A stretch of 64,000 nucleotides of DNA from Mustelus asterias (Eukaryota), in assembly GCF_964213995.1 (NCBI RefSeq), contig NC_135811.1, forward strand, positions 110,298,001 to 110,362,000, in the 5' to 3' direction. How positions within the stretch are numbered: position 1 is the first letter of the stretch; each line of letters opens with the position of its first letter. A program made the translations under genes and the position numbers. This document shows, in pieces, positions 5,062 to 48,307 of the stretch. Under the pieces are notes generated by a model. That model made no database searches and was not told the origin of the DNA. It was given only the letters and a program-made list of their open reading frames with translations.

Positions 5062-6500
5062 TGGACTGACCGACACAGACTGACCGACACAGACTGACCG
5101 ACACGGCTCAGGACAGACTGACCGACACAGACTTACCAACACAGTCTGACCAAGACAGCTCAGGATGGACTGACCGACACAGACTGACCGACACAACTCA
5201 GGACAGACTGACCGAGACAGACTGACCAACACAGTCTGACCAAGACAGCTCAGGATGGACTGACCGACACAGACTGACCGACACAGCTCAGGACAGACTG
5301 ACCGAGACAGACTGATCGACACAGCTCAGGACAGATTGACCAAGACAGGCTGACTGAGACAGACTGACCAAGACAGAATGACCGACATGGTTCAGGACAG
5401 ACTGACCGACACAGGCTGACCGACACAGCTCAGGGCAGACTGACCGAGACAGACTGACTGAGACAGACTGACCGGGTCAGACTGACCGACACAGACTGAC
5501 CGACATGGCTCAGGACAGACTGACCGAGACTGACTGACACAGCTCAAGACAGACTGACCGACACGGCTCAGGACAGACTGACTGAGACAGACTGACCGAG
5601 ACAGACTGACCGAGACAGACTGACTGACACAGACTGACCGGCATAGCTCAGAACAGACTGACCGACACAGACTGACCAAGACAGACTGACCGACATGGCT
5701 CAGGACAGACTGACCGAGACTGACCGACACAACTCAGGACAGACTGACCGAGACAGACTGACCGACACGGATCAGGACAGCCTGACCGAGACAGAGTGAC
5801 CAACACAGCTCAGGACAGACTGACCGAGACAGACTGACCGACACAGACTGACCGACACAGAATGACCAACATGACCCTAGGACAGACTGACCGACACAGA
5901 CTGACTGACACAGAATGACCAACATGGCTCAGGACAGACTGACCAACACAGACTGACCGACACAGACTGACCGACACAGACTGACCGACACAGAATGACC
6001 AACATGGCTCAGGACAGACTGACCAACACAGACTGACCGACACAGAATGACCAACATGGCTCAGGACAGACTGACCGACACAGACTGACCGACACAGACT
6101 GACCGACACAGAATGACCAACATGGCTCAGGACAGACTGACTGACACAGACTGACCGACACAGAATGACCAACATGGCTCAGGACAGACTGACTGAGACA
6201 GGCTGACTAACACAGACTGACCGACACAGACTGACCGAGACAGACTGACTGAGACAGTTCAGGACAGGCTGACTGAGACAGGCTGACCAAGACAGGCTGA
6301 CTGAGGCAGACTGACCGAGACAGCTCAGGACAGACTGACCGAGACAGCTCAGGACAGACTGACCGAGACAGACTGACCAACACAGACTGACCGACACAGA
6401 CTGACCGACACAGACTGACCGACACGGCTCAGGACAGACTGACCCAGACAGACTGACTGACACAGACTGACCGAGACAGCTCAGGACAGACTCACCGACA
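5062..6500. repeat. Compound minisatellite built on a ~14-bp core (GACACAGACTGACC) plus GGCTCAGGACAG units
   Basis: About 1.4 kb of variant ACAGACTGACCGAC repeats immediately upstream of the PNMT coding exon. Confidence 0.95.
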
Positions 6501-6557
6501 CAGTCCGAGTCCCAGCAAAGTGACCAATTGGGAGAGTTGAGAATGCCGGTATTTATA
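6496..6557 (-). promoter_or_regulatory. Putative PNMT TATA box and short non-coding first exon
   Basis: Minus-strand TATAAATA at 6557-6550, consensus donor GTGAGT at 6495-6490, and a branch-like GCTAAT plus ATACAG acceptor at 5009, just upstream of the ATG. Inferred; no transcript data. Confidence 0.5.
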
Positions 6558-10221: not shown

Positions 10222-10562
10222 TGCCTGGTAACCCAGGTACCCCACTCACCCGGCGCCTGGTAACCCAGGTACCCCACTCACCCGGCGCCTGGTAACCCAG
10301 GTACCCCACTCACCCGGCGCCTGATAACCCAGGTACCCCACTCACCCGGCGCCTGGTAACCCAGGTACCCCACCCACCCGGCGCCTGGTAACCCAGGTAC
10401 CCCACCCACCCGGCGCCTGGTAACCCAGGTACCCCACCCACCTGGCGCCTGGTAACCCGGGTATCCCACCCACCTGGCGCCTGGTAACCCGGGTACCCCA
10501 CTCACCCGGCGCCTGGTAACCCGGGTACCCCACTCACCCGGCGCCTGGTAACCCGGGTATCC
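10222..10562. repeat. 32-bp minisatellite (GCCTGGTAACCCAGGTACCCCACTCACCCGGC)n
   Basis: About 10 tandem units. Confidence 0.95.
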
Positions 10563-11440
10563 CATCCACCCGCTCCCCCACCCACCCGCTCACCCACCCA
10601 CCTGCTGCTCCAACCACTATCTACCCCATCACCCACTGCTCCAACGACACGCACCCTCACCCACCCACTGCTCCACTCACCCGTTCTCCTACCCACCCGC
10701 TCCCCTACCCACCCACTCCCCTACCCACCTGCTCCTCCACCCACCCACTCCCTCACCCACTCACCACTCCACCCACCCGCTCCTTCACCCACCCACCACT
10801 CCACCCACCCGCTCCCCCACCCACCCACCACTCCACCCACCCGCTCCTTCACCCACCCACCACTCCACCCACCCGCTCCCCCACCCACCCACTCCTCCAA
10901 CCACCTGCTCCTCCACCCACCCACTCCCTCACCCACCCGCTCCCCCACCCTCTCGCTCCTCCCCCCACCCGCTACTCCACCCACCCGCTCTCCCACCCAC
11001 CTACTGCTCCAACCACCTGCTCCCCCACCCACCCGCTCGCCTACCCACCCACTCCCCCACCCACCCGCTGCTCCAACCACCCGCTCCTCCAGTACCCCGT
11101 CCTCCATCCACCCGCTCCTCCAACTTCCCGCTCCTCCACCCACCCGCTCCCCCACCCACCTGCTCCTCCACCCACCCGCTCCCCCACCCACCCACTCCCC
11201 CACCCACCCGCTCCCCCACCCATCCGCTCCTCCAACAACCCACTCCTCCACCCACCCGCTCCCCCACCCATCCACTCCTCCAACCACCCACTCCCCCACC
11301 CACCCACTGCTCCAACCACCCGCTCCCCAATCCACCCGCTCCCCCATCCACCCGCTTCCCCACCCACCCGCTCCTCCACCCACCCGCTCCCCCACCCAAC
11401 CGCTCCCCCACCCAACCACTCCCCCACCCATCTGCTCTCC
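10563..11440. repeat. C-rich low-complexity repeat (CCACCCACCCGCTCC-like)
   Basis: Degenerate ~16-bp C-rich units; G-rich on the minus strand. Confidence 0.9.
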
Positions 11441-12194
11441 CAACCATTGTCTGCCCTACCTGTGTCAGAGACTGTAGGTCACACATTGGACTCCTCAGTT
11501 ACCTGAGAACTCATTGTTAGTGTGGAAACAAATCACCCTCGACTCAGAGGGACTATCTCAGAGGGACTATCTCAGAGGGACTATCTCAGAGGGACTATCT
11601 CAGAGGGACTATCTCAGAGGAAGGAGTTATTTCTGTTTGAGTTCTCGGTTTATTTTGACTGCATTCAGATATGGAGCTTTTAGTTTTGGACTTTTTTTAT
11701 TTTTGTAACCTCTATTCTTGACCACTAAGAGTAAATCTTACATTTCTACATTCTGTCTCTTCCTGTCATGTTCCGTTTGTCATTTTCCATATTACTACCT
11801 TTCCCTCTCACCTTGCCTCAACTCTTTAATTTACCACATTTTCCCCAATTTGATCCCTTATCTTGACTGTGTGAAATGCTTTGAGACATTTGGCAATATG
11901 ACATTGTCCACAAGACACAAGTAATGGGATACTTTCCACTTGCCAGGTTGAGTGCTGCCATTAATGTCAAGCCATTGGATAATTGCAGAGATCTCTTTTT
12001 TCATTAATGTATTTGAGCAAAAATTAACTTGAGTTTGAATAAAGTCGAACCTCATCTGAAAGGCTGTAAAATCAATTTGACTTTTTAGTGGTTATTGACA
12101 GGTTAAGAGTTGACATTAACAAATGCCTTTGGAGCCAATACTATGTTACCTTATAAATAATCTTAATATGAAGGGAATATTTTGGGCATTGTAT

Positions 12195-13755: not shown

Positions 13756-14679
13756 ATATATCAATTTACTCCATCATTGGTGGCTGTACCTTCAGCTTCC
13801 TGCTCCTTAAGCTCTTGGATCCCCTCCTGAATTCTCTCTACCTCTCCACATCTCTCGCCCACTTTAAGATGCTCCTTAAAACCTGCCTCCTTGTCACCAA
13901 CTTAATATCTCCTAATATCCTTGCAAAATAATATCCCCTGGATGTCAGAGTTTATTTTATAAGGCCTCACGTAAGTTCCTGTTTCTTTGATGTTGTCGCA
14001 GTTCCGAGTGTATCTCAGGATTAAAGTCCATGTTATAGTTTCAGTCGGATCTGTGCCTCGGCATTGTAAAGCGAGTGAGTTGTTGCTGTGTTTAAACCCT
14101 GATAATATGAGCTGATGGTTCACCTCCTACACGTGGCTGCCTCTGGGGAAGATCTTATCAGTTCCAGTTATCAATTCAACCCAACAATAACTTGACATGG
14201 ATTTCAACAACTCTCTGCGATTACATGATAATGATTTGATAAAGTGAAGAGGCAGTCAGCTGTTCAGAAGCTGTTAATATCATTACACGGGATGGTCACA
14301 CACATTTCCTGCATTCACATATCTCAATCTAACTGGACTTACAGACAACAGATACAAAACAGAGTTGGGAAATAATACAGTTATAGATTTTTATAGATAA
14401 GAAAATTGTCACAAGCTGAATTATGTTGCTTCAAATAGAAAACCGAGCGTGTCTCAGCGCTGAACAACATTTCCCAGCTGAGGTTAATTGAACATTCACT
14501 GTCCTAATGTGATTGAAGATAATCTTGACGTGACACAGGCTCAACACATTTTGCACATTTCGCCTTTATTAAATTTGCTGCAAAAAGTCACTTCTCGATA
14601 ATATTTGTGTTTGGCAGAAACAGCAAATCTGTCTCCGAAACAAGCTGCTGAGGGGATTATAACCTGGAGTGCAATCACT

Positions 14680-17443
14680 GCACTCCCCCTGTACCGCGCT
14701 CCCCCTGTACCGCGCTCCCCCTGTACCGCGCTCCCCCTGTACCGCGCTCCCCCTGTACCGCGCTCCCCCTGTACCGCGCTCCCCATGTACCACGCTCCCC
14801 CTGTACCACGCTCCCCCTGTACCGCGCTCACGCCGTACCGCGTGCCCCCGTACCGCGTGCCCCCCGTACCGCGTGCCCCCCGTACCGCGCTCCCCCTGTA
14901 CCGCGCTCACGCCGTACCGCGTGCCCCCCGTACCGCGTGCCCCCCGTACTGCGCCCCCCCGTACCGCGCTCCCCCCGCACCGGGCTCCCCCCGTACCGCG
15001 CGCCACCCGTACCGCGCTCCCCCCATACCGCACTCCCCCCGCACCGCGCTCCCCCCGTACCACACACCCCCTGTACCGCGCTCCCCCTGCACCACGCTCC
15101 CCCTGTCACTGCGCTCCCCCCGCACCACACACCCCCTGTACCGCGCTCCCTTTGCACCGCGCTCCCCCTGCACCACGCTCCCCCTGCACCGCGCTCCCCC
15201 CGCACCACACACCCCCTGTACTGCGCTCCCTCTGCACCACGCTCCCCCTGCACCGCGCTCCCCCTGCACCGCGCTCCCTCTGCACTGCACTCCCCCTGCA
15301 CCGCGCTCCCCCTGCACCGTGCTCCCCCTGCACCGTGCTCCCCCTGCACCGTGCTCCCCCTGCACCGTGCTCCCCCTGCACCATGCACCCCCCGCACCAC
15401 TCTCCCCCTGCACCGCGCTCCCCCTGCCCCGCGCACCCCTTGCACCGCACTCCCCCTGCACCACTCTCCCCCTGCACCGCGCTCCCCCTGCCCCGTGCAC
15501 CCCTTGCACCGCGCTCCCCCTGCACCGCGCTCCCCCTGTAACCGCGCTCCCCCTGTCACCACGCTCCCCCTGTAACCGCGCTCCCCCTGTTACCGCGCTC
15601 CCCCGTACCGCGCTCCCCCCGTACCGCGCACCCCCGCACCGCCCTCCCCCTGCACCACGCTCCCCCCGTACCGCGCTCCCCCTGCACCGCGCTTCCCCTG
15701 CACCGCGCTCCCCCTGCACCGTGCACCCTCTGCACCGTGCTGCCTCTGCACCGCGCTGCCTCTGCACCGTGCACCCTCTGCACCGTGCACCCCCTGCACC
15801 GTGCTCCCCCTGCACCGCGCTCCCTCTGCACCGCACTCCCCCTGCACCGCGTTCCCCCTGCACCGTGCACCCCCTGCACCGCGCTGCCTCTGCACCGCGC
15901 TGCCTCTGCACCGCGCTGCCTCTGCACCGCCCTCCCCCTGCACCGCGTTCCCCCTGCACCGTGCACCCTCTGCACCGCGTTCCCCCTGCACCGTGCACCC
16001 TCTGCACCGTGCACCCTCTGCACCGTGCACCCCCTGCACCGCGCTCCCCCTGCACCATGCACCCCCTGTACACGTTCCCCCTGTTACCGCGCTCCCCCTG
16101 TTACCGCGCTCCCCCCATTACCGCGCTCCCCCTACACCGCGCTCCCCCTGTACCGCGCTCCCCCTGTACCGCGCACCCCTTGCACCGCGCTCCCCCTGTA
16201 CCGCGCACCCCTTGCACCGCGCTCCCCTTGCACCGCACTCTCCCTGTACCGCGCACCCCTTGCACCGCACTCTCCCTGTACCGCGCACCCCTTGCACCGC
16301 GCTCCCCCTGTACCGCGCACCCCTTGCACCGCGCTCCCCCTGTACGCATTCCCCTGTACCGCGCTTCCCCTGTACCACGCACCCCTTGCACCACGCTCTC
16401 CCTGAACTGCAGTCCCTGTACCGCACTCCCCCTGTACCGCACTCCCCCTGTACCGCACTCCCCCTGTACCGCACTCCCCCTGTACCGCACTCTCCCTGTA
16501 TCGCACTCCCCCTGTACCGCACTCCCCCTGTACCGCACTCTCCTTGTACCGCACTCTCCCTGTACCGCACTCTCCCTGTACCGCACTCCCCCCGTACCGC
16601 ACTCCCCCCGTACCGCACTCTCCTTGTACCGCACTCTCCCTGTACCGCACTCTCCCTGTACCGCACTCCCCCTGTACCGCACTCTCCCTGTACCGCACTC
16701 CCCCTGTACCGCACTCTCCCTGTACCGCACTCCCCCTGTACCGCACTCCCCCTGTACCGCACTCCCCCTGTACCGCACTCTCCCTGTACCGCACTCCCCC
16801 CGTACCGCACTCCCCCCGTACCGCACTCTCCTTGTACCGCACTCTCCCTGTACCGCACTCTCCCTGTACCGCACTCCCCCTGTACCGCACTCCCCCTGTA
16901 CCGCACTCCCCCTGTACCGCACTCTCCCTGTACCGCACTCCCCCTGTACCGCACTCCCCCTGTACCGCACTCCCCCTGTACCGCACTCTCCCTGTACCGC
17001 ACTCTCCCTGTACCGCACTCTCCCTGTACCGCACTCCCCCTGTACCGCACTCTCCCTGTACCGCACTCTCCCTGTACCGCACTCCCCCTGTACCGCACTC
17101 TCCCTGTACCGCACTCTCCCTGTACCGCACTCTCCCTGTACCGCACTCTCCCTGTACCGCACTCTCCCTGTACCGCACTCTCCCTGTACCGCACTCTCCC
17201 TGTACCGCACTCTCCCTGTACCGCACTCTCCCTGTACCGCACTCCCCCCGTACCGCACTCTCCCTGTACCGCACTCTCCCTGTACCGCACTCCCCCTGTA
17301 CCGCACTCTCCCTGTACCGCACTCCCCCTGTACCGCACTCTCCCTGTACCGCACTCCCCCTGTACCGCACTCTCCCTGTACCGCACTCCCCCTGTACCGC
17401 ACTCTCCCTGTACCGCACTCTCCCTGTACCGCACTCTCCCTGT
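14680..17443. repeat. 16-bp CpG/C-rich minisatellite (CTGTACCGCACTCCCC)n upstream of TCAP copy 1
   Basis: About 2.7 kb of tandem 16-bp units with a variant gradient. It generates the long spurious ORFs in all six frames. Confidence 0.95.
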
Positions 17444-18770: not shown

Positions 18771-18891
18771 GAGAGGCACAGCCAGGTTCAGACAGAGATT
18801 GTTTGAGAAAAGGCGTTGTTAATGAAGGGAATATGGATGAGGATCCGGCTAAATCTCCATCTGTTAATCTACATGTTTCTCCTTGTGGCAG

Positions 18892-19303
18892 ATGCTCTTT
18901 AAACGAGGTGGATGATGTCCGGAAGGAGAGTTACAACAGGAAATATCAGGTGACCTACCTGGTGCAGCGAAACCCCAACAATGTGATGAGGATGGGCCGC
19001 TTGGGAGAGGCACTGACTGAGTACCGCCTGCCATACCGCAAGCAGCTGCCACTGCCCATCTTCAGCCCCACTCACATCAGCAACAAGGTGGAAAGGGCAG
19101 TGACTCCCCCAGAGCTAAGTACAATCATTGAGCTGGAGCGAGCTCTGGGCTCGGGCGGCAGGTGTCAGGATAAGAGAGACATCTCCGAGATCACCAGAGA
19201 ACTTCCTCCAGTCATCCAGCCTGTCAGACTGGACAGCAAGAAAGCGGACATGGTGCAAAGATCCCTGTCCAGGTCCATGTCCCAGGAAGCTCAGAGAGGC
19301 TGA
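18892..19303 (+). CDS. TCAP: Telethonin copy 1, exon 2
   Basis: Acceptor TGGCAG|A; CSLNEVD...MRMGRLGEALTEYRLPY...LPLPIF...RSLSRSMSQEAQRG* with the diagnostic TCAP C-terminus. Joins exon 1 in frame (176 aa). AATAAA at 19832 and 19995. Confidence 0.95.
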
Positions 19304-20354
19304 GAGAGGCTGAGAGGCAGTGGGATAGGCTGTGCCTGGGTAGTATTTTGATGCAGTGTACAGTTTAGTCAGTGTGTGAAGATGCGACTTTAGAAGAATG
19401 AGAGGTGATTTCAATGAAACATATAAATTTCTTAAGGGACTTGTTGGAAAGTGTTCCCATTGGCTGGAGATTCTAGAACATGTGCTCAGTCTCGGGGGGC
19501 GGGGGGGGGGGGGTCCATTTCGGATTCCAGGTGGGAAGAATTTTCTTCAGTCGCAGTTTGGAATTTTCTCCACCACAGACCTGCGGCTGCTCCGCCATTG
19601 GATGTGTTCCAGAGGGTGATAGGTCCAAAGGGAATTGCGGGATAGTGGGATGATGTGGAAAGTGGAGATGGATGAGGTCAGTTGGAGTGGAGGAGGCTGT
19701 GTGTGTGTGTGAGGGGTGGAGGGAGAGTCTCTAATTTCTCATGCTCCAGTGTTTAGTGCACTCACTATTCCTGGACAGAGGCTGGCAGTGAGAAAGGTTC
19801 AGAAAGCTTTGATAGAGGATTGGGTAATAGAAATAAAGGTCAAGGAGCAGTGAACACTGGATGTGAGAAGGTCACGGAAGATGCTGAGGCAACACTTCTG
19901 TCTTATATCTCATATCTATATGTGTATCAGTGAGCTTTTGTCCCAGTGCGTTTATTTTAAAATATGAGTGTTTTGTACTGATTTTTGACATTGAAATAAA
20001 ACTGGATAGAACTCTGACTGATTTTCTGATGTTCACACAGTTCTCCATCACACACTCAGTTAGAAACTGGCATCATTAGTGTACCACAGGGCACATGCAA
20101 CGCTGGGGCTGGTATACTTTGTGTGGTACACCATGGTGCATCTTCCTCCAATGCCTCTGCACTCTTATCCAGCTGAGTGGAACTGTTATTGCCTGGTTCC
20201 ATTCTTATTTAATTGTAGCCAGAGAATCATGCAGAATGGCTTCTCTTCCTGTTCCTCTGGTGTCCCCCACACATCTATCTCCGCCCCTTCTCTTTCTAAC
20301 CCAAATGTTGCCTCTTGGCAACAACATCCAAGCACAATGTTAGATTCCACATGT

Positions 20355-21929: not shown

Positions 21930-24289
21930 CAGAGTGAATGACTGGATCTTTTTCTGAGGTGATTGTTTGCATAGTTGCTGCTGCCTAAATTCACAGGGAT
22001 TGTGAACAGAATGAGAGGCAAGAATAACGTTTGCTGATATTCCCACCCTGACTAAACATAGATTAGGCAGCTGTTGTTTACAGTCTGGGTAATGCATTGC
22101 GCTAACTGGTCAGTCAGCTCTCTGGAGAGATATCCTCCACCATCTCGCACTCAAAACAGTTCATTGAAATAGCCATTTAGCTATCATTAAAGGAGAATGA
22201 GATACTCTCACCCATAGGCCAAAGTTTTACGAGATTAATTCCGAGGGCCTGATTTTACCATCAAGTTGCACCTGTTTTTGGGTGTGAAAACTTGGTAAAG
22301 TCGGGCGTGAGGTGAGTAGCGCGGTCTGTGCCCGCCTCCGCGCCGGATCTGTGCCCGCCTCCGCACCGGATCTGTGCCCGCCTCTGCGCCGGAACTGTGC
22401 CCGCCTCCGCGCCGGATCCGTGCCCGCCTCTGCGCCGGATCTGTGCCCGCCTCTGCGCCGGATCTGTGCCCGCCTCCACGCCAGATCAGTGCCCGCCTCC
22501 GCGCCGGATCTGTGCCTGCCTCCGCACCGGATCTGTGCCCGCCTCCGCGCCGGTTCCCCCTTTACCAAGGCCCAAAATGGTCGCGGTCGGGACTGCGCCT
22601 GAAAAGGGCGCGATGGCCATTTAAATGCATTCGCATGCATTTAAATTGACTTAATGGGCTGCACGCCCGACCTTACCGGCACTTCCCCCTTTACCACCGC
22701 GTTCGCCCGTCCAGAATCGGCATGAAACAGACATGCTCCGTATTAGTCTGATTCGGGCGCTCCAGTTAGTGAGGGGGTAAGTGCCGAGTGTCCGACGGCT
22801 CTCTGCATGAGATCGGTGGGGGAGGGGGGGGGGAGGGAAGGGGGGGTTCACTGCCACTCTGCCTGAGATTGGTGGGGGGGAAGAGAGGGAGGAGCCCGTG
22901 TTCAGTCTGGGTAGCGGAAGGGGGAAGGGGGATAAGGGGATCAGTAATGTTGTGGGGGTGGGGCAATGCCTGTGGGGGTCAGGGGGAGGCGTTACCCGGC
23001 CCGGGGGGGATGTGGCAGGGGAACGTTATTCCATCTATTTTTTTTCTGCGCCTGCGCAGTTGGCGACGCCGATCGGAGCAGCAGGGTTACGAGCGCGTTA
23101 AGCGTCTCACACAGGCTTCTGCAGCGTGATTCAGAATTGCTGATATTTTTTCAGGCAGGGTGTGTATGGGAGCGCCTGAGAATGGGTTTAAAAGTCGGAT
23201 CTGAAACACTCCCAGTTTCAAGTCCACCCAGCACTCTGCAAGAGTGCATTCGCATGCATTTAAATTGACTTAATGAGCTGCACGCCCGACCTTACCGGCA
23301 CTTCCCCCTTTACCACCCCGTTCGCCCGTCCAGAATCAGCACGAAACAGACATGCTCCACAAAAGTCTGATTCGGGTGCAGGCATAGATCCGGTGCGGAG
23401 GCGGGCACAGATCCGGTGCGGAGGCGGGCACAGATCCGGTGCGGAGGCGGGCACAGTGCCGGTGCGGAGGCGGGCACAGATCCGCTGCGGAGGCAGGCAC
23501 AGTTCCGGTGCGGAGGCGGGCACAGTTCTGGTGCGGAGGCGGGCACAGATCCGGCGCGGAGGCGGGCACAGTTCCGGTGCGGAGGCGGGCACAGTTCTGG
23601 TGCGGAGGCGGGCACAGATCTGGCGCAGAGGCGGGCACAGATCCAGTGCGGAGGCGGGCACAGATCCGCTGCGGAGGCAGGCACAGTTCCGGTGCGGAGG
23701 CAGGCACAGATCCGGCGCGGAGGCGGGCACAGATCCGGTGCGGAGGCGGGCACAGATCCGGCGCGGAGGCGGGCACAGATCCGGCGCGGAGGCGGGCACA
23801 GATCCGGCGCAGAGGCGGGCACAGATCCGGCGCGGAGGCGGGCACAGATCCGGTGCGGAGGCAGGCACAGATCCGGCGCGGAGGCGGGCACAGACCGCGC
23901 TACTCACCTCACGCCCGACTTTACCAAGTTTTCACACCCGAAAACAGGTGCAACTTGATGGTAAAATCAGGCCCTCGGAATTAATCTCGTAAAACTTTGG
24001 CCTATGGGTGAGAGTATCTCATTCTCCTTTAATGATAGCTAAATGGCTATTTCAATGAACTGTTTTGAGTGCGAGATGGTGGAGGATATCTCTCCAGAGA
24101 GCTGACTGACCAGTTAGCGCAATGCATTACCCAGACTGTAAACAACAGCTGCCTAATCTATGTTTAGTCAGGGTGGGAATATCAGCAAACGTTATTCTTG
24201 CCTCTCATTCTGTTCACAATCCCTGTGAATTTAGGCAGCAGCAACTATGCAAACAATCACCTCAGAAAAAGATCCAGTCATTCACTCTG
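21930..24289. repeat. Large inverted repeat (arms ~21930-22555 and ~23650-24289) built around a MITE-like element with 23-bp internal tandem repeats
   Basis: Identical translations on opposite strands (21771..22097 - and 24122..24331 +). The 23-bp unit GGATCTGTGCCCGCCTCCGCGCC occurs in opposite orientation in the two arms. TIR-like GGGCCTGATTTTACC at 22245. Confidence 0.9.
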
Positions 24290-25404: not shown

Positions 25405-25995
25405 TAGCCCCGCTGCCCCCCCCCCCTCCCTGCTGTCCAGAGCGATCGCGGCCCCCCTTCCCACCCCTACCGATCGCAGGCCGAATGGCAACGGGCCCTC
25501 TCTACCTCCATTGGCTCCGCCCCCAACATCCCCAACCTCCATTGCCCCCCCCCCCCCCGGCACTGCCCAATGGATGGTGCCAAGGTGCCCAGTGGGCATT
25601 GCCCAAGGTGCACCCCCGCTTTGCACTCAGCCTCCCTGGGGAAGTCTCAGTGACCTCCAGTTCCACCGGCGGGGCCAACACAACTGTTCCCCATTCATGG
25701 GGAGGAGGTGTTTTCCTCGCCAGAGAGAACCTCTCCCTGCGAGGCCATAAAGATAAGCGAGCCCGGACGATTGAGCGCCGAGCTCACTAAACAGATATTA
25801 AACAGCTTTTAAATAAATTTAAATAAATGAATCAGCCTCTTGCCCATTCCCGGTGAGAGGCTGACCGCACTGGAAATCCGGGTCTCGTAAAACAGCGAGA
25901 GGTGTGAAAACGGGCGCCATTTCCACCACCCGCTTTACGCCCAATTTTACGACATTTTCCCGCCGCAAAATGGACACAATGAGGTTGTAAAGTTC
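25405..25995. mobile_element. Partial MITE-like non-autonomous DNA element
   Basis: GC-rich body with the palindromic TGCCCA..TGGGCA motif also seen at 34.7 kb, and a TIR-like end GTAAAGTTCCGTCC. Confidence 0.4.
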
Positions 25996-34312: not shown

Positions 34313-35651
34313 GGGGGCGAGTCTCCCATCCCGCTAATTTATTTGCACAGGCGGCCGGGAGCTTTCAGCAGGGCTGGATGAGCACGATCCGCGCTGAGCG
34401 TCCGGTACCGAGCGCCTCTCCCAGCGCCAGATTTCTGCCACTGTCAGCTCTGCGCCAGAAATAAATGCGGAGATATACATTAGGTAAGCGGGGGATTTAA
34501 TGTCACTTAAATATCATTAGCGGGCCTGGGACTGAAGCCTCCGAACCCACTTGCATCTCCCTCCCATCAGAGTGGCTCACTCCAGTGGGGTTTACTGGAG
34601 CTCTTCTCTTTCAGGGAGTTGGCAGCCCAACCCCACTGGCAATCGGGACCCCCAGAGGGTCAGGGCAGTGGGTGGTGCCTGCTGGGCATTGGCATCTTGG
34701 CAGTGCCAGCCTGGGCCCCCTGGCAATGCCCAATGGGCAAAGAGCCAATGCCCAGGGGGCACCTTTGCACTGCCCATCTGACATGGGGCAGTGCCAAGGG
34801 GGCAGGGCTTATGGGGCAGGGCATAGGGAGTCTCGGGAATATAGGGGGGTCGGGACTGTGGGGGTGTTTGGAGCTTCAGGCGGGGTGGCACTGCGGGGGG
34901 GGGTTGGGTCAACGGGGGGGTGGAATCAGGGGGTTGGAGATCGGGGAGGACTGGGAGAGGGTGCTTCGAGGCTGGTCCTGCAATGGTCAGGGGAGGCAGT
35001 GGTTGGGCCGTGGGAGGAGGGGGTGGTCACATCGCCAGCGATGCGGGGTTGCAGTGCTGGCCAGCGATCAGGAAGCCAGCAGTGTGCCCCTACACTGATC
35101 AGCGCATGCGCAATGGCCCCCTCAGCGCTCTACTGCCGGTGTCTCGGGTGGGAATAGGCCCCGCCCCTGATTTTCAACGATATTCGTGCTGGTGGCCTCT
35201 GCCACGCACAGAGTGTGAGAGATTCTTCCTGAACTCCCACTGAAAAACCAGCGTGAATTACTCCAGTTTTTTAAAAATACTTTTTCAATCAAATCAAATC
35301 CAATTCAGAGTCTCAACAAGTTGAGACATTTCAGATCCAGGCTGACAAGACAGGGCGAGCGACCAAACCACCCTGTCCTGGGCCCGATCTACATGAGCCA
35401 AGCTGATTGGAGAAGGGGGAGGTTCCTCCTCCAAGACTTGAGCTCATTTGCATCTTAGCCAAAAGGCCGAGATGCCGCTTTTAAAAATTGCTTCATATGA
35501 AGCCTCAGCGTAACCCAATGACCTCAACCAAGTGCGGCCGACCATGGGCTGCCGTCCATACACTTGATCTTAGCCAAAAGGCCGAGAAGTGAATTACTCC
35601 AGTTTTCACGCAAATTCGCCACTTAAAATATTTTTGGGGGAATCCCAGCCC
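34313..35651. mobile_element. MITE-like element (GGG(C)..TCTCCC / GGGGAAT..GCCC termini) hosting the U2-headed insertion
   Basis: Imperfect terminal inverted repeats and a GC-rich body with no coding capacity. Confidence 0.5.
35271..35588 (-). mobile_element. U2 snRNA-headed retroposed element (SINE-like), ~318 bp, with 18-bp TSD
   Basis: Minus strand begins CTTCTCGGCCTTTTGGCTAAGATCAAGTGTA (U2 nt 5-35), has a second U2 piece (nt 7-27) at 35472-35452 and a (GATTT)n/A-rich tail. Flanked by GTGAATTACTCCAGTTTT at 35253-35270 and 35589-35606. Confidence 0.85.
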
Positions 35652-36164
35652 ACATCTGGAACACCACGTTCAGTTTTGGTCTTCACATTTAGGAAAGGAT
35701 ACCCGGGCGTTGGAGGGAGTACAGCAAGGTTCACTAGATTGGCTCATTGGGATGAGGGGGTGAGTAAATTGGGTTTATATTCTCTGGAGTTTAGAAAAAT
35801 GAGAGATGACCTCACAGAAACCGACAGGATTCTGAGGGGTTTGATAGGGTGGATGCGGAGAAACTGTTTCCATTGGTCGGGGAATCTGAAACATGGTGGG
35901 GGGTGGGGAGGGGCTCAGTCTCAGGGGGGCTGATCATTTGGGACTGAGATAAGGAGAAATTCTTCCACTCAAAGCGTTGTGAACCTTTGGAATTCTCTCC
36001 CCCAGAGGGTTGTGGATGCTCAGGTGTTGAATATATTTAAGGCTGGGACAGGCAGATTTTGGACTCAGGGGAATTAAGGGATCGGAGAGTGGGTGGGAAA
36101 ATGACGTTGAAACCCAAGATCCATCAAGAATGGTGGAGATGCTCAATGAGTTATACGGTCCAGT

Positions 36165-37889: not shown

Positions 37890-40828
37890 CTAGACCAATC
37901 GTTTGTATCCCTCCATTCCCAGGCTGCTCATGTGACTATCCAGGTAAGTCTTAAACGATGTCAGCGTGCCTGCCTCCACCACCCTACTTGGCAGCGCATT
38001 CCAGGCCCCCACCACCCTCTGTGTAAAAAACATCCCTCTAATATCTGAGTTATACTTCGCCCCTCTCACCTTGAGCCCGTGACCCCTCGTGAACGTCACT
38101 TCTGATCTGGGAAAAAGCTTCCCACCGTTAACCCTATCTATCCCCTTCATAATCTTGTACACCTCTTTTAGATCTCCTCTCATTCTCCGTCTTTCCAGGG
38201 AGAACAACCCCAGTTTACCCAATCTCTCCTCATAGCTAAGACCCTCCATACCAGGCAACATCCTGGTAAACCTTCTCTGCACTCTCTCTAACGCCTCCAC
38301 GTCCTTCTGGTAGTGCGGTGACCAGAACTGGACGCAGTACTCCAAATGTGGCCTAACCAGCGTTCTATACAGCTGCATCATCAGACTCCAGCTTTTATAC
38401 TCTATACCCCATCCTATAAAGGCAAGCATACCATATGCCTTCTTCACCACCTTCTCCACCTGTGTTGCCACCTTCAAGGATTTGTGGACTTGCACACCTA
38501 GGTCCCTCTGTGTTTCTATACTCCTGATGACTCTGCCATTTATTGTATAACTCCTCCCTACATTATTTCTTCCAAAATGCATCACTTCACATTTATTCGG
38601 ATTAAACTCCATCTGCCACCTCTCCGCCCAATTTTTCAGCCTATTTATATCCTGCTGTATTGCCCGACAATGCTCTTCGCTATCCGCAAGTCCAGCCATC
38701 TTCGTGTCATCCGCAAACTTGCTGATTACACCAGTTACACCTTCTTCCAAATCATTTATATATATCACAAATAGCAGAGGTCCCAGTACAGAGCCCTGCG
38801 GAACACCACTGGTCACAGACCTCCAGCCGGAAAAAGACCCTTCGACCACTACCCTCTGTCTCCTGTGGCCAAGCCAGTTCTCCACCCATCTAGCCACTTC
38901 TCCTTGTATCCCATGAGCCTTAACCTTCTTAACCAACCTGCCATGTGGGACTTTGTCAAGTGCCTTACTGAAATCCATATGGACAACATCCACGGCCCTT
39001 CCTTCGTCAACCGTTTTTGTCACTTCCTCAAAAAACTTCACCAAATTTGTAAGGCACGACCTCCCTCTTACAAAACCATGCTGTCTGTCACTAATGAGAT
39101 TGTTCCGTTCTAAATGCACATACATCCTGTCTCTAAGAATCCTCTCCAACAACTTCCCTACCACGGACGTCAAGCTCACCGACCTATAATTTCCTGGGTT
39201 ATCCCTGCTACCCTTCTGAAACAACGGGACCACATTCGCTATCCTCCAACCCTCAGGGACCTCACCCATGTCCAAAGAAGCGACAAAGATTTCCGTCAGA
39301 GGCCCAGCAATTTCATCTCTCATCTCCCTGAGCAGTTGAGGATAGATGCCATCAGGCCCTGGGGCTTTGTCAGTTTTAATGTTCCCTAAAAAACCTAACA
39401 CTTCCTCTCTTGTAATGGAGATTTTCTCTAACGGGTCAACACCTCCCTCCGAGACACTCCCGGTTAACACGCCCCTCTCCTTCGTGAATACCGATGCAAA
39501 GTATTCATTTAGGATCTCCCCTATTCCCTTGGGTTCTAAGCATAATTCCCCTCCTTTGTCCCTGAGAGGTCCGATTTTCTCCCTGACAACTCTTTTGTTT
39601 CTAACGTATGAATAGAATGCCTTAGGATTCTCCTTAATCCTGCCTGCCAAGAACATCTCGTGACCGCTTTTTGCTCTTCGAACTCCCCGTTTGAGTTCTT
39701 TCCTACTCTCTCTGTATTCTTCCAGAGCTCCATCTGTTTTCTGTTGCCTGGACTTAACGTACGCCTCCCTTTTCATTTTAATCAGATCCTCAATTTCCCT
39801 GGTTATCCACGGCTCTTGAATCCTACCTTTCCTATCTTTCCTTTTTACAGGCACATGCCTATCCTGCAGCCTTATCAATAGTTCCTTAAAAGACTCCCAC
39901 ATGCCAGACGCGGACTTACCCTCGAACATCCTCTCCCAATCAACATCCATCAATTCCTGCCTAATCCGGCTATAGTTAGCCTTCCCCCAATTTAGCACCC
40001 TGCCCGTAGGACAGCACTCATCCTTGTCCATTACTATCCTAAAGTTAACAGAGTGTGGTCACTATTTGCCACATGTTCCCCTACCGAAACTTTGACGACC
40101 TGACCGGGCTCATTTCCCAGAACTAGGTCCAGTATAGCCCCCTCTCTAGTCGGGCTATCTACATACTGTTCCAAAGAACCTTCCAGTATGCATTTTACAA
40201 ATTCCTCCCCGTCCGGACCCCCAGCTCTAAGCACTTTCCAGTCTGTGCCAGGGAAATTAAAGTCCCCCACTACAACAACCCTATTTTTTGTGCACCTATC
40301 CAGAATCTCCTGACATATCCTTTCCTCCACTTCCCGTGGGCTGTTGGGTGGTCTGTAGTACACCCCCAGCATAGTGACTGCACCCTTCCTGTTTCTGAGT
40401 TCCACCCACAGCGACTCAGTACATGACCCCTCTAAGTTGTCTACCCTCTGCACCGCGGTAATATGCTCCTTAACTAATATCGCTACTCCCCCACCTTTTT
40501 TAGCCCCTCCTCTGTCTCGCATAAAACACTTATACCCCAGAATATTCAGCTGCCAGTCCTGTCCTTTTAACCAAGTTTCCGTAACCGCAACCACATCCAA
40601 ATTCCGCACAAGCATTAAGGCCCTAAGTTCGTCTGTTTTACCCGTTACGCTCCCCGCATTGAAGCAGATGCACTCCAGACCTCCAGGCCCAGTCAGGTCA
40701 TCCTCCTCCAGAGTGCTCCTCTTCTTAGCTAGCCTTGCCCTGGCCCCCAGCTCGACCCCAGCCTCAGTATTTACTGACCTACTGTTTTGTTCCCCACCCC
40801 CCTGCCACTCTAGTTTAAATCCTGCCAA
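37890..40828 (-). pseudogene. CR1 ORF2 (APE endonuclease + reverse transcriptase) with one frameshift at ~40050
   Basis: 264-aa EN frame (VAVTETW, YYRPPN, VGDFN, LDLVL, SDH) then a 713-aa RT frame (QHGF, QGSVLGP, FADDTK). Confidence 0.9.
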
Positions 40829-41736
40829 AACACTCTAGCAAAACTCCCAGCCAGGATATTTGCTCCCTTCCAGTTAAGGTGTAACCCATCCTTTCTGTAC
40901 AGTTGCCATCCTGACTTGAAGATTTCCCAGTTATCTATGAATTTAAAACCCTCCCTCTTGCACCAGTCCTTTAGCCACGCGTTCAACTGTAGAATCTCCC
41001 TGTTCCGAGCTTCACTTGCACTAGACACCGGGAGCAGTCCAGAGATTGCTACACTGGAGGTCTTACTTTTTAGCCCAGCACCCAACTCCCTGAATTTCTC
41101 TCGTATGACCCCCCTGCTCTTCCTACCTACATCATTTTCACCAATGTGTATAATCACATCCGTTTGACTACCTTCCTTTTTAAATATGCTTCCTACCCTC
41201 TCGGAGACATCCAGTACCCCAGCACCAGGGAGGCAGACTACCATCCTGGATTCTCGTTCACTCCCACAGAACCGCCTGTCCGTGCCTCTAACCATTGCGT
41301 CCCCTACAACTATCGCTCTCCTAAACCCCTTCTTTCCCTTCCGGACCCCTGAGCCTGTCTCCGTAGAGGCGATCTGGTCCTCGTGGCTTACCCCTGGAGG
41401 GTCATCCCCCTCCACAGAATCCAAAACAATATACCTATTTTGGAGGGGGACAACCACAGGGGATCCCTCCACAGACTGCTCACTCCCTTCCCTTCTCCCA
41501 TCTGTTGCCCATCCCTTTCTTTTATGGGAGACTGCCACTGGGGTACTTTCTGGCACATCACCCTTCTGACTATTACCCCTCCTAACTGTGACCCACGTGT
41601 CTTCCTTCCGAGACCCTGGTGTCACTACCTGACTATAACTTTCATCTATTAATCTCTCATTTTCCCTAACTAAACTGAGTTCATCGAGCCTCAGCTCCAG
41701 CTCCCTCACACGATCCTTCAGGAGTTGCAGTTCCAC
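40810..41736 (-). CDS. CR1 ORF1 (coiled coil + SGNH esterase-like domain), N-terminus incomplete
   Basis: ELQLLKDRVRELELRLDEL coiled coil; IVVGDAMVRG, CLPGA, HIGEND and DGLHLN esterase motifs typical of CR1 ORF1. Confidence 0.85.
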   Translation of the reverse strand: MELQLLKDRVRELELRLDELSLVRENERLIDESYSQVVTPGSRKEDTWVTVRRGNSQKGDVPESTPVAVSHKRKGWATDGRREGSEQSVEGSPVVVPLQNRYIVLDSVEGDDPPGVSHEDQIASTETGSGVRKGKKGFRRAIVVGDAMVRGTDRRFCGSERESRMVVCLPGAGVLDVSERVGSIFKKEGSQTDVIIHIGENDVGRKSRGVIREKFRELGAGLKSKTSSVAISGLLPVSSASEARNREILQLNAWLKDWCKREGFKFIDNWEIFKSGWQLYRKDGLHLNWKGANILAGSFARVFWQDLN

Positions 41737-41809
41737 ACATCTGGCACAGATATGGACTTCCGGGAGGACTTTTATATTTTTGCCATTTTTTGCATTATTC
41801 TTGAAAACA

Positions 41810-42376
41810 NNNNNNNNNNNNNNNNNNNNNNNNNNNNNNNNNNNNNNNNNNNNNNNNNNNNNNNNNNNNNNNNNNNNNNNNNNNNNNNNNNNNNNNNNNN
41901 NNNNNNNNNNNNNNNNNNNNNNNNNNNNNNNNNNNNNNNNNNNNNNNNNNNNNNNNNNNNNNNNNNNNNNNNNNNNNNNNNNNNNNNNNNNNNNNNNNNN
42001 NNNNNNNNNNNNNNNNNNNNNNNNNNNNNNNNNNNNNNNNNNNNNNNNNNNNNNTGTGGGAGTGTGNNNNNNNNNNNNNNNNNNNNNNNNNNNNNNNNNN
42101 NNNNNNNNNNNNNNNNNNNNNNNNNNNNNNNNNNNNNNNNNNNNNNNNNNNNNNNNNNNNNNNNNNNNNNNNNNNNNNNNNNNNNNNNNNNNNNNNNNNN
42201 NNNNNNTGTNNNNNNNNNNNNNNNNNNNNNNNNNNNNNNNNNNNNNNNNNNNNNNNNNNNNNNNNNNNNNNNNNNNNNNNNNNNNNNNNNNNNNNNNNNN
42301 NNNNNNNNNNNNNNNNNNNNNNNNNNNNNNNNNNNNNNNNNNNNNNNNNNNNNNNNNNNNNNNNNNNNNNNNNNNN
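41810..42376. other. Assembly gap / N-masked region
   Basis: Run of N with a few called TG-rich bases. Confidence 1.
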
Positions 42377-43873
42377 TATGTGTGGGTGAGTGTGTGTGGG
42401 TATGTGTATGTATGTAAATTATTTAATTATGTTGAGGAAAAGTTACTCGGGGTAGGTTGTCTGGGGGTTTAAGACATGAAAGAGTAGAGGTGTTCAGTTT
42501 GTGCATTAGTAATGAAATAATATTGGTGGTTTTGAGGTGCAACTAAATAGGCTGGATATAACATTTACCTTTTTAAATGTTTGAATATCAAATAAAAGTC
42601 AAAGGTGTCAAGAAAGATTTTCCAGGGTTCCATTGGATAAAGGGAAGACGGCGTGTTCGACGTTATTGACCCGGAAACAGACAAAATAGAAATATGGAAG
42701 ATTTCACATTTAGAATTATCTGAGTTCCAAAGAGATGTGGGAACATTGGAGCCTGAGGGAGGGGGAGGTGAAAGGTATTTTAGAGATACTGACGAGATCT
42801 TAGGTGTTGCCTGTGTGAGAAAAATCGCCCAGAAACAGCCTTGGGCTGAGAGAAAGTGCAGCTGTCCAGCAAGGCCAGAAAAATCCTGAGGCTGAGGAAA
42901 GCAGTCTTGTTTCTGAAAGTTTCTTAGATTTCCACAGCAGAGTGGAAGAGCTTAATGGGTTGGGTGGTTTACCATATTAAGGTGATGTCTTTTGGGTAAG
43001 ATTACTGGATTTTTATCTGGGTTAAACATCTATAAGGGAGTATTGCCTGGAAGGTGTTTACTTGTGGATCTGGCTAGTAGGAAGTCTTTTGGAGGTATAT
43101 TTTGTAAGACTAATTTTAACTGTGTAACTATAATCTTATGTGCTTAAGTTTTCTTTTCTTCTTGTTGATAAACCTTTTACTTTTCTTTAAATTCCAGAAG
43201 AGTTTGAGATTTCTTTCTGCTGAGGTTAGTATGTTTCCCTCTTGGTTTCACATTGCAAATGAAAGGTTATGGCCCATTAGTCAAGTTTCCCTCTGGGATT
43301 TGGTTTGATCAGCAATTAACATAACCAGACAAAACTTTAAAGGGAGGCTGGCGATTCTTGGTCTTGCCCTTTCTTGGCCTTTCCTGAGGAGAGCTCGATA
43401 CAGCAGAAAGGTCATAGAAGCAGCAGGAACTGACTGGTTTTCTCTTTGATATATTTTTCCTCCTAATCAATTGCTCAGTTGGTGATGTTTGACATTTGGA
43501 CCATGACATATGAGTGTGTATCTGTGTAAAACCACATCTCCCGATGTTGACAGGTAACAACATCTAAGTGAAGTAAATCCAGTCACTACAATGTTAGACA
43601 TGGAGGAGAACCCAGGACCACTTGGGATAGAGAGACAACACCCAAAGCAACAACCGCCCTGAGGGGAAAATTGACACCGGGAAATGATTCACTTTAGCAT
43701 CATGGAGTATCCTGGGTTAGAGCAGTTAGTGAACTGTCCCAGGTTAGAGCTGGGGACGTGAGCAAGTGAGGTGAGTATAGTTCTCAGGGCAACCATGTAT
43801 TGTTTTGGTGACAAATGCAGAATGGTCTCAGTGGAGGGAGGATTCTGATTATAAAGTCCGGCACTGGAAGTAA

Positions 43874-44225: not shown

Positions 44226-44873
44226 CTTTCTATGAATGTGGCCCTGTCTCCTGTAACCCTCTCCCAGCCCATCGACACTCACGCCTCACCCTCCCTATAC
44301 AACTCTCATCCCTCCCCCTCCTTCCCGCCCCCCTTCCTCCCTCCCCACCACCCCCCCGCCCCCCCACACACACTCTCTGTTATGTTATTGGCGATTGCGA
44401 TTCCTATTGTTGTCTCCAGAATGTTCACTTTTCTTGCTTTTATAACCTAAACCCCACAGTAGGGAGCGAGTTTACAGCCGTCGCTTTGCATTCTTGGCTT
44501 CAGGTTAATTCTTTTTCGAATGAAGCGTTTTTGGATATTTTTCCATTTGTTGCCAGCGAGTCTCTGAGGAAATTATGAAACTGTCTCAAAGCAGCAAGTT
44601 CCTCAGTCATTCTTTATTAAAAATAAAATGAAACTTTCCAGTGAATAATTACAAAAATAAGTCAGGAAACATCTACTTAAATACAATCTTTTTGCTTTAG
44701 TGCCCGAAGTACATTTCACATAATCGCTAAACTTCCAGTTACATTTCACAATTTCTTCCACTTGCTGTCCTGCCTCTCACTCCATCATCATCCGACCCAC
44801 AAAATCTCCCCCCGCGAAACATTCCTCAACACAGTCAGCCTTTGCACTCAGTCCCGCCGCCTCTCAGCCTCTC

Positions 44874-45285
44874 TCAGCCTCTCTGAGCTTCCTGGGACAT
44901 GGACCTGGACAGGGATCTTTGCACCATGTCCGCTTTCTTGCTGTCCAGTCTGACAGGCTGGATGACTGGAGGAAGTTCTCTGGTGATCTCGGAGATGTCT
45001 CTCTTATCCTGACACCTGCCGCCCGAGCCCAGAGCTCGCTCCAGCTCAATGATTGTACTTAGCTCTGGGGGAGTCACTGCCCTTTCCACCTTGTTGCTGA
45101 TGTGAGTGGGGCTGAAGATGGGCAGTGGCAGCTGCTTGCGGTATGGCAGGCGGTACTCAGTCAGTGCCTCTCCCAAGCGGCCCATCCTCATCACATTGTT
45201 GGGGTTTCGCTGCACCAGGTAGGTCACCTGATATTTCCTGTTGTAACTCTCCTTCCGGACATCATCCACCTCGTTTAAAGAGCAT
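44874..45285 (-). CDS. TCAP: Telethonin copy 2, exon 2
   Basis: Reverse complement of 18892-19303 with an identical translation; own AATAAA at 44618-44613. Confidence 0.95.
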
Positions 45286-45407
45286 CTGCCACAAGGAGAA
45301 ACATGTAGATTAACAGATGGAGATTTAGCCGGATCCTCATCCATATTCCCTTCATTAACAACGCCTTTTCTCAAACAATCTCTGTCTGAACCTGGCTGTG
45401 CCTCTCT

Positions 45408-47204: not shown

Positions 47205-48307
47205 CAGTACTGAGGGAGTACCGCACTGTCAGAGCGTCAGTACTGAGGGAGTGCCGCACTGTCAGAGCGTCAGTACTGAGGGAGTGCCGCACTGTCAGAG
47301 GGTCAGTACTGAGGGAGTGCTGCACTGTCAGAGCGTCAGTACTGAGGGAGTGCCGCACTGTCAGCGGGTCAGTACTGAGGGAGTGCTGCACTGTCAGAGG
47401 GTCAGTACTGAGGGAGCGCTGCACTGTCAGAGGGTCAGTACTGAAGGAGTGCCGCACTGTCAGAGGGTCAGTACTGAGGGAGTGCCGCACTGTCAGAGGG
47501 TCAGTACTGAGGGAGTGCCGCACTGTCAGAGGGTCAGTACTGAGGGAGTGCCGCACTGACAGAGGGTCAGTGCTGAGGGAGTGCCGCACTGTCAGAGGGT
47601 CAGTGCTGAGGGAGTGCCGCACTGTCAGAGGGTCAGTACTGAGAGTGTGCCGCACTGTCAGAGGGTCAGTACTGAGGGAGTGCCGCACTGTCAGAGGGTC
47701 AGTGCTGAGGGAGTGCTGCACTGCCAGAGGGTCAGTACTGAGGGAGTGCCGCACTGTCAGAGGGTCAGTGCTGAGGGAGTGCCGCACTGTCAGAGGGTCA
47801 GTGCTGAGAGAGTGCCGCACTGTCAGAGGGTCAGTACTGAGAGAGTGCCGCACTGTCAGAGGGTCAGTACTGAGGGAGTGCCGCACTGTCAGAGGGTCAG
47901 TACTGAGGGAGTGCCGCACTGTCAGAGGGTCAGTGCTGAGGGAGTGCTGCACTGTCAAAGGGTCAGTGCTGAGGGAGTGCTGCACTGTCAGAGGGTCAGT
48001 GCTGAGGGAGTGCTGCACTGTCAGAGGGTCAGTGCTGAGGGAGTGCCGCACTGTCAGAGGGTCAGTACTGAGGGAGTGCCGCACTGTCAGAGGGTCAGTA
48101 CTGAGGGAGTGCCGCACTGTCAGAGGGTCAGTGCTGAGGGAGCGCCGCACTGTCAGAGGGTCAGTACTGAGGGAGTGCCGCACTGTCAGAGGGTCAGTAC
48201 TGAGGGAGTGCCGCACTGTCAGAGGGTCAGTACTGAGGGAGTGCCGCACTGTCAGAGGGTCAGTACTGAGGGAGTGCGGCACTGTCAGAGGGTCAGTACT
48301 GAGGGAG
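47205..48307. repeat. 33-bp minisatellite (GTACTGAGGGAGTGCCGCACTGTCAGAGGGTCA)n expanded inside a Deu-domain SINE
   Basis: About 33 units, preceded by CCAGAGACATGAGCA..CAGGCTGACAC..GTGCAG (SacSINE1/AmnSINE1-like); SINE tail relic at ~48570-48660. Confidence 0.9.

What the first reader, a model, noticed from the sequence alone, without database searches (positions are those of the whole stretch)
35253..35606. U2 snRNA-headed retroposon with two U2 modules and an octamer motif: possible SINEU-like family in sharks
Seen: a 318-bp minus-strand insert with a perfect 18-bp TSD (GTGAATTACTCCAGTTTT). It begins with an exact 31-nt match to U2 nt 5-35, stopping within the branch-point-recognition region. 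After ~85 nt of unknown sequence comes a second U2 piece (nt 7-27) running directly into ATGCAAAT, then a ~150-nt body and a (GATTT)n/A-rich tail. Known: ATGCAAAT is the Oct-1 octamer of snRNA distal elements; U1/U2-derived SINEs (SINEU) are described from crocodilians; Keno (Tx1 clade) and Utopia elements target the 5' part of U2 genes. Inference: a non-autonomous element whose master sits in a U2 gene, is transcribed from the U2 promoter, and is mobilised by L1/Tx1 machinery to non-U2 sites. U2 nt 7-27 cover stem I and U6-pairing sequence, so transcripts might interact with U6.
Basis: partly seen in the sequence, partly recalled or inferred. Interest (0 to 1): 0.78.

Follow-up and report, generated by a model that had tools for sequence, protein, structure and literature searches.

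The report
U2-headed SINE-like insert in houndshark
A young 318-base jumping-gene copy in a shark carries two pieces of the U2 splicing RNA, each predicted to be folded away in a hairpin; it resembles the U2-headed mobile elements described from crocodilians, but whether it belongs to a dispersed family is not yet shown.

Summary
The insert is real: 318 nt on the minus strand, a perfect 18-bp TSD, an L1/Tx1-type TTTT/CA nick, U2 nt 5-35 at its 5' end and U2 nt 7-27 inside. The window is from a houndshark (telethonin 100% identical to Mustelus asterias). Non-U2 parts occur in public runs of 9 further organism codes in 10 further studies. That favours a family but does not prove one: no genome was held and no reads were laid. 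The octamer is probably incidental (2.5% of shuffles; it completes a hairpin stem). A master inside a U2 gene is unsupported: the head ends at nt 35, not the Keno/Utopia 38/39 junction, and no PSE or U2 3' part was found. New here: the RNA folds unusually well (z -6.4), and the linker carries a 24-nt arm antisense to the U2 head (12 Watson-Crick and 8 G-U pairs; about 0.5% of shuffles). U2 is thus predicted to be masked, not free to pair with U6. Verdict: works like crocodilian SINEU, probably of independent origin; Repbase and Dfam unchecked. The scan noted U2-headed elements before in other genomes.

The parts
35589..35606 (.). target-site duplication, copy at the element's 5' end (18 bp)
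   Evidence: exact repeat, not extendable
35253..35270 (.). target-site duplication, copy at the element's 3' end; begins with 4 A on the element strand
35559..35589 (-). U2 head 1, U2 nt 5-35; nt 5 is shared with the TSD
   Evidence: Rfam RF00004 alignment
35512..35535 (-). arm antisense to U2 nt 11-34 of head 1: 12 Watson-Crick pairs, 8 G-U pairs, 4 mismatches in two 2x2 loops
35473..35558 (-). 86-nt linker: antisense arm, a 14-nt palindromic hairpin (35490-35503) and a T5 run (35483-35487) that Rfam aligns to the U2 Sm-site position
35450..35475 (-). U2 module 2 (exact nt 7-27 at 35452-35472) with stem I extended by three extra pairs
   Evidence: pair probabilities 0.94-1.0
35446..35453 (-). 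octamer-like 8-mer; probably incidental
35306..35451 (-). body of unknown origin: hairpins at 35393-35447, 35332-35391 and 35310-35327
   Evidence: z -4.93 for 35271-35451; no Rfam match below E 0.3; helices
35271..35305 (-). tail: short GATTT repeats, A5, T5, terminal A2
34314..35652 (.). host repeat, about 1 kb without the insert, G-rich and MITE-like with weak terminal inverted similarity; the insert lies about 46 bp from its right end (inferred, unclassified)
   Evidence: terminal similarity reached by 26 of 2000 shuffles; a 7-bp inverted repeat at 35251-35257 / 35605-35611 straddles the insert

Best explanation
A recent copy of a short, non-coding, non-autonomous retroposon of sharks that works like crocodilian SINEU. 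Shown: it inserted as one unit by target-primed reverse transcription at a TTTT/CA nick and duplicated 18 bp, the signature of L1/Tx1-clade enzymes. Inferred: the unit was built by two successive additions of the U2 5' end, by template switching in the single-stranded branch-point region, onto a hairpin-rich body. Four internal T4-T5 runs exclude Pol III read-through, so a master is probably transcribed by Pol II from flanking sequence. Predicted: the RNA folds into a row of hairpins in which head 1 is paired to an antisense arm and module 2 is locked by an extended stem. This suggests that head and linker have been carried together as RNA under selection and are not a one-off join.
For: TSD and nick. 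Two U2 modules, as in SINEU-1 subfamilies. T runs, the argument Kojima uses for SINEU. Whole-insert fold z -6.4; only 1 of 57 control windows of 181 nt was lower and 2 of 57 were below -4.9, both in a satellite array. Antisense arm: 20 of 24 ungapped pairs, reached by 7 of 1500 shuffled linkers; duplex -28.9 kcal/mol, reached by 12 of 5000 shuffles and 2 of 4908 window segments; 17 of 24 listed runs hold 0.2 or more of 31 sampled words. Leaving out the possible source study P1, that is 10 studies and 9 organism codes besides organism A. The U2 matches in the query are 30 and 21 nt long, so no 31-mer can come from U2 alone. Several holders are small contig sets (33-143 million letters).
Against: No second copy in the window and no look-alike among the scan's notes. 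No dispersed locus, second TSD or empty site was seen. Run X21, from the same sample as holder X6 and of 1335 million letters, holds next to none of the words, which is not expected of a very high-copy family (the tool warns this is no proof of absence). Shares of 0.3-0.6 also fit one orthologous locus at 2-4% divergence, or only the body being shared (52% of 31-mers). There is no real poly(A) tail. The arm was found after the fact, and forcing the native U2 stem I costs only 3.9 kcal/mol. No partner LINE was found in the window; its RT ORFs look CR1-like by eye.
Confidence: 0.62

Rival explanations
1. A single or low-copy chimeric retrocopy: U2 fragments joined by template switching to pieces of one or two other structured RNAs (an unknown ncRNA, or a LINE or mRNA 3' end). 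The cross-organism matches come from that parent RNA gene or from an orthologous locus.
For: U2 chimeras and 3'-truncated U2 retrocopies with TSDs are common L1 products (PMC4476161; PMC5322556). Single copy in the window. X21 is blank. A share near 0.5 equals the body alone.
Against: It needs three switches in one event. In the human set only 1 of 58 characterised U2 copies was joined to a repeat. A fresh join does not explain an arm complementary to the head or the stem-extending changes around module 2. No Rfam family fits the body.
Confidence: 0.2
2. One reading: a non-autonomous Keno-like element whose master sits in a U2 gene and is transcribed from the U2 promoter.
For: The head begins near U2 +1. 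Keno is a Tx1 element of U2 genes, and Tx1-Mar, the proposed SINEU partner, clusters with it. It would solve the promoter problem.
Against: The Keno/Utopia 3' junction is at nt 39, with nt 1-38 expected upstream; this head ends at nt 35. No U2 3' part follows. The best PSE-like match has 5-6 mismatches, as in random segments (consensus recalled). The target here is not U2-like.
Confidence: 0.13
3. The element is a family already catalogued in Repbase or Dfam, or in automatic repeat libraries of shark genomes (compatible with the best explanation; it removes novelty only).
For: The host genome is a public annotated assembly or a close relative of one. Those libraries could not be searched.
Against: Ten literature searches listed no shark snRNA-headed SINE. 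Kojima 2015 found no SINEU outside crocodilians. The passages seen from the shark SINE paper PMC5499810 hold no mention of snRNA.
Confidence: 0.25

Closest known systems
SINEU-1/-2/-3 of crocodilians (Kojima 2015, PMC4494074)
   Same: Short non-coding retroposon with U2-derived 5' head, more than one U-derived module, internal oligo-T, no known internal promoter, TSDs; sits in what looks like a non-autonomous DNA transposon.
   Different: Shark host; perfect 18-bp TSD; almost no poly(A); body not matched to U2. No antisense arm or masking of the head is described in the main text read. Homology to the SINEU-1 body could not be tested.
Keno (Tx1 clade) and Utopia, U2-gene-targeting non-LTR elements (PMC4640811; Keno as cited there and in PMC4494074)
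   Same: U2 5' fragment ahead of an element; Tx1/L1-type insertion.
   Different: No coding capacity, junction at nt 35 instead of 38/39, no U2 3' flank, target outside U2.
3'-truncated (tailless) and chimeric U2 retropseudogenes made by L1 (PMC4476161, PMC5322556)
   Same: U2 cut in a single-stranded segment, long TSD, L1-type nick.
   Different: Two U2 pieces plus 267 nt of other, strongly folded sequence inside one TSD; non-U2 parts present in other organisms' runs.

Membership tests
SINEU | 5' head derived from U1 or U2 snRNA | tested here: met
   U2 nt 5-35
SINEU | short (under 500 bp) and non-coding | tested here: met
   318 nt; no ORF of 120 aa or more overlaps it
SINEU | recurrent 5' addition of U1/U2 pieces | tested here: met
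   two U2 modules in one TSD; the order of events is inferred
SINEU | internal oligo-T that excludes Pol III transcription | tested here: met
   four T4-T5 runs on the sense strand
SINEU | 3' poly(A) tail | tested here: inconclusive
   A5, then T5, then only A2 plus 4 A shared with the TSD
SINEU | many dispersed copies of one structure (not independent chimeras) | tested here: inconclusive
   17 of 24 listed runs hold 0.2 or more of the words; no loci seen; one copy in the window; no genome held
SINEU | target preference for a non-autonomous DNA transposon shared with a Tx1 partner | tested here: inconclusive
   one insertion in a MITE-like repeat; n = 1, no partner found
SINEU | sequence homology to crocodilian SINEU bodies | not testable with these tools
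   no Repbase or Dfam; the paper's supplements were not readable
Keno / Utopia | inserted in a U2 gene with nt 39 onward as 3' flank | tested here: not met
   head ends at nt 35; 3' flank is not U2
Keno / Utopia | encodes endonuclease and reverse transcriptase | tested here: not met
   no ORF of 120 aa or more
U2 snRNA gene | full-length match above the Rfam gathering score, with upstream PSE | tested here: not met
   37.9 bits against 46; PSE scan at random level

The most novel reading that the evidence does not exclude
An independently evolved, recently active shark family of U2-headed SINEs whose RNA carries its own anti-U2 arm. The arm masks the U6-pairing and branch-point bases of the head in cis. 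It may also dock real U2 snRNA in trans, so that reverse transcriptase jumps onto U2 at nt 35, one base past the end of the duplex (nt 11-34), renewing the head. That would be a mechanism for the recurrent U2 capture that is unexplained in SINEU.
Probability: 0.2. Interest if true: 0.78.

Novelty: new variant of a known kind. Interest (0 to 1): 0.5.

Why it matters
In the papers found, snRNA-headed SINEs are described only from crocodilians, where most families are old and how they are transcribed is open. A young shark family would show that this design arose again in vertebrates and would give fresh copies for mapping masters, promoters and the partner LINE. If the antisense arm covaries with the head across copies, it makes two open questions testable: how such RNAs avoid disturbing the spliceosome, and why U2 heads are captured repeatedly at about the same base.

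Tried and rejected
No whole genome was held and no read or contig pile-up was obtained, so copy number, other flanks and empty sites are open; no RNA holder listed; the 3 small-share rows (X18-X20) and the metagenome labels are not used as evidence. Pattern scans with body probes gave 13 metagenome, 5 viral and 33 prokaryote-genome loci. All 51 are read as chance: nearly all alignments were 17-26 nt, and one 41-nt alignment was not inspected. Body as a decayed U2 3' half, suggested by eye from memory: no U2 match in 35280-35451 at E up to 10. Body as scaRNA or snoRNA: SCARNA21 E 0.3 and SNORD94 E 0.07-0.68, far below gathering scores, with no H box between the hairpins by eye. Ribozyme: no Rfam match at E up to 10; the hammerhead core is incomplete by eye. 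Octamer as promoter element: rejected. Sm site in the linker: Rfam aligns the T5 run to it, but the following G of the recalled consensus is missing; left open. The linker alone folds no better than shuffles (z -1.27). A first telethonin search among longer proteins found nothing. Scan look-ups by sequence, place and words gave nothing for this DNA.

Full report
Observation. The insert spans 35271-35588 on the minus strand between exact 18-bp repeats. By chance 0.0008 such pairs are expected in the window. A 7-bp inverted repeat of the host sequence has one arm on each side of the insert, which fits an insertion into a once continuous site. The nick reads TTTT/CA on the plus strand, one base from the L1 consensus TTTT/A given in PMC4476161. 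Rfam U2 matches at 37.9 bits, E 1.4e-5, with model nt 5-35 exact; nothing in the window reaches a gathering score. The second piece is a 21-nt exact repeat of part of the head. The tail has little poly(A).

Host. A telethonin exon in the window is 100% identical, over 91% of the query, to a protein named for Mustelus asterias; the next named hit is 82% (Scyliorhinus torazame). The window is therefore from a houndshark. The insert lies about 46 bp inside the end of a roughly 1-kb G-rich repeat. Its ends show weak inverted similarity (26 of 2000 shuffles as good), and it shares short internal stretches with a second such repeat near 25.4-26.0 kb (77-79% over 48-57 nt). I read it as MITE-like; this is inference and no family name was obtained.

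Is it a family? No genome was held, there is no second copy in 64 kb, and no read pile-up was obtained, so dispersed loci were not seen. The run index listed 24 runs: 20 hold part of the insert, 17 hold 0.2 or more of 31 words, and 8 hold half or more. Leaving out study P1 as a possible source, 10 studies and 9 organism codes besides organism A remain. The U2 matches in the query are 30 and 21 nt, so these 31-mers must include non-U2 sequence. Several holders are small contig sets of 33-143 million letters, which suits repeated or abundant sequence, though the index selects holders from very many runs. Against a very high copy number, X21, a 1335-million-letter run of the same sample as holder X6, holds next to none. 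Shares of 0.3-0.6 equal 2-4% divergence over the whole insert, or the body alone (52% of words), so an orthologous locus or a parent RNA gene is not excluded. All 51 loci from pattern scans of metagenome, viral and prokaryote collections are read as chance.

The whole insert folds at -132.9 kcal/mol, z -6.4 against 200 shuffles; the body and tail alone give z -4.93, 0 of 200 shuffles as good. Of 57 control windows, 2 were below -4.9, both in a satellite array. Window 35512-35535 pairs without gaps to U2 nt 11-34 of the head at 20 of 24 positions: 12 Watson-Crick and 8 G-U, with the 4 mismatches in two 2x2 loops. Seven of 1500 shuffled linkers reach 20 or more. The duplex energy is reached by 12 of 5000 shuffles and 2 of 4908 window segments, and head plus linker by 16 of 1000. 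Against an exact reverse complement, all 8 transitions in the arm keep a wobble pair; this is partly circular, since the register was chosen for pairing. In the ensemble the paired bases of nt 13-33 pair with the arm at 0.89-0.97 and the native stem I at 0.03 or less, but forcing stem I costs only 3.9 kcal/mol. Around module 2, three extra pairs extend stem I at probability 1.0, and the first four bases of the octamer are the 3' strand of that stem. The test was made after the fact, so I treat the arm as likely, not proven. All of this is prediction; no probing data exist.

Octamer and promoter. An octamer appears in 494 of 20000 shuffles of the insert and 5 times in the window. By eye it also reads as U2 consensus nt 26-33 with one inserted base and one transition. 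A recalled PSE consensus matches linker, body and 5' flank with 5-6 mismatches, the common value for random segments. Four T4-T5 runs argue against Pol III (termination at T4 is established knowledge and Kojima's argument). Keno and Utopia leave U2 nt 39 onward downstream, with nt 1-38 expected upstream; here the head stops at 35 and no U2 follows. Truncation of U2 copies in single-stranded segments is typical of L1 products, and repeated head addition by template switching is documented for SINEU-2. I therefore prefer template-switch heads and an external Pol II promoter to a master inside a U2 gene.

Mechanism, shown and inferred. Shown: a single TPRT-type insertion with long TSD, two U2 pieces, shark host, non-U2 parts present in other organisms' runs. 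Predicted: hairpin-rich RNA with masked U2 pieces. Inferred: a master copy, a Tx1/L1 partner, Pol II transcription. Speculative: the arm docks U2 in trans and sets the junction at nt 35.

Comparison and novelty. It works like SINEU; membership of the crocodilian families is not claimed, since poly(A), copy number and target preference are inconclusive and body homology was untestable. Papers: PMC4494074, parts 1-4 of 5 of the whole text read, supplements not readable, which may bear on body homology and head end points; PMC4640811, passages and section 6; PMC4476161, passages and section 8; PMC5499810, PMC5786205, PMC5381603 and PMC5322556, passages only. Ten searches listed no snRNA-headed SINE from sharks; I saw most hits as listings only. 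Subscription papers, Repbase and Dfam were not covered. The scan's own unchecked notes describe U2-headed or leader-headed elements in other genomes, so the design may be more widespread than printed; I did not test those notes.

Verdict. A real, young, SINEU-like retroposon copy in a houndshark; family likely (about 0.6) but unproven; octamer, U6 pairing and master-in-U2 ideas not supported; the antisense arm is the most interesting lead. New variant of a known kind, interest 0.5.

Noticed in passing
window 18791-19325 (+) and 44852-45386 (-): Two inverted copies of a telethonin coding exon, 533 of 535 nt identical and 26 kb apart: a recent inverted duplication or an assembly artefact. The insert lies between them.
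   Followed up: partly
window 37890-42426 (-): A nearly intact CR1-like LINE with GDSL-esterase ORF1, endonuclease and RT; the endonuclease and RT are in different frames, and ORF1 has N gaps.
   Followed up: partly
window 34314-35652 and about 25405-25995: Two G-rich MITE-like repeats sharing short internal palindromic stretches; unclassified.
   Followed up: partly
window 21930-22556 / 23663-24289: A 627-bp inverted repeat at 97% identity around a 23-bp satellite.
   Followed up: no
window 2771-4824, 5064-6503, 10223-11447, 14677-17443, 47205-48307: Long tandem or low-complexity arrays.
   Followed up: no
window 35483-35487: T5 run between two predicted hairpins, aligned by Rfam to the Sm-site position of U2; may be chance or a trace of an older U2 segment.
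   Followed up: partly
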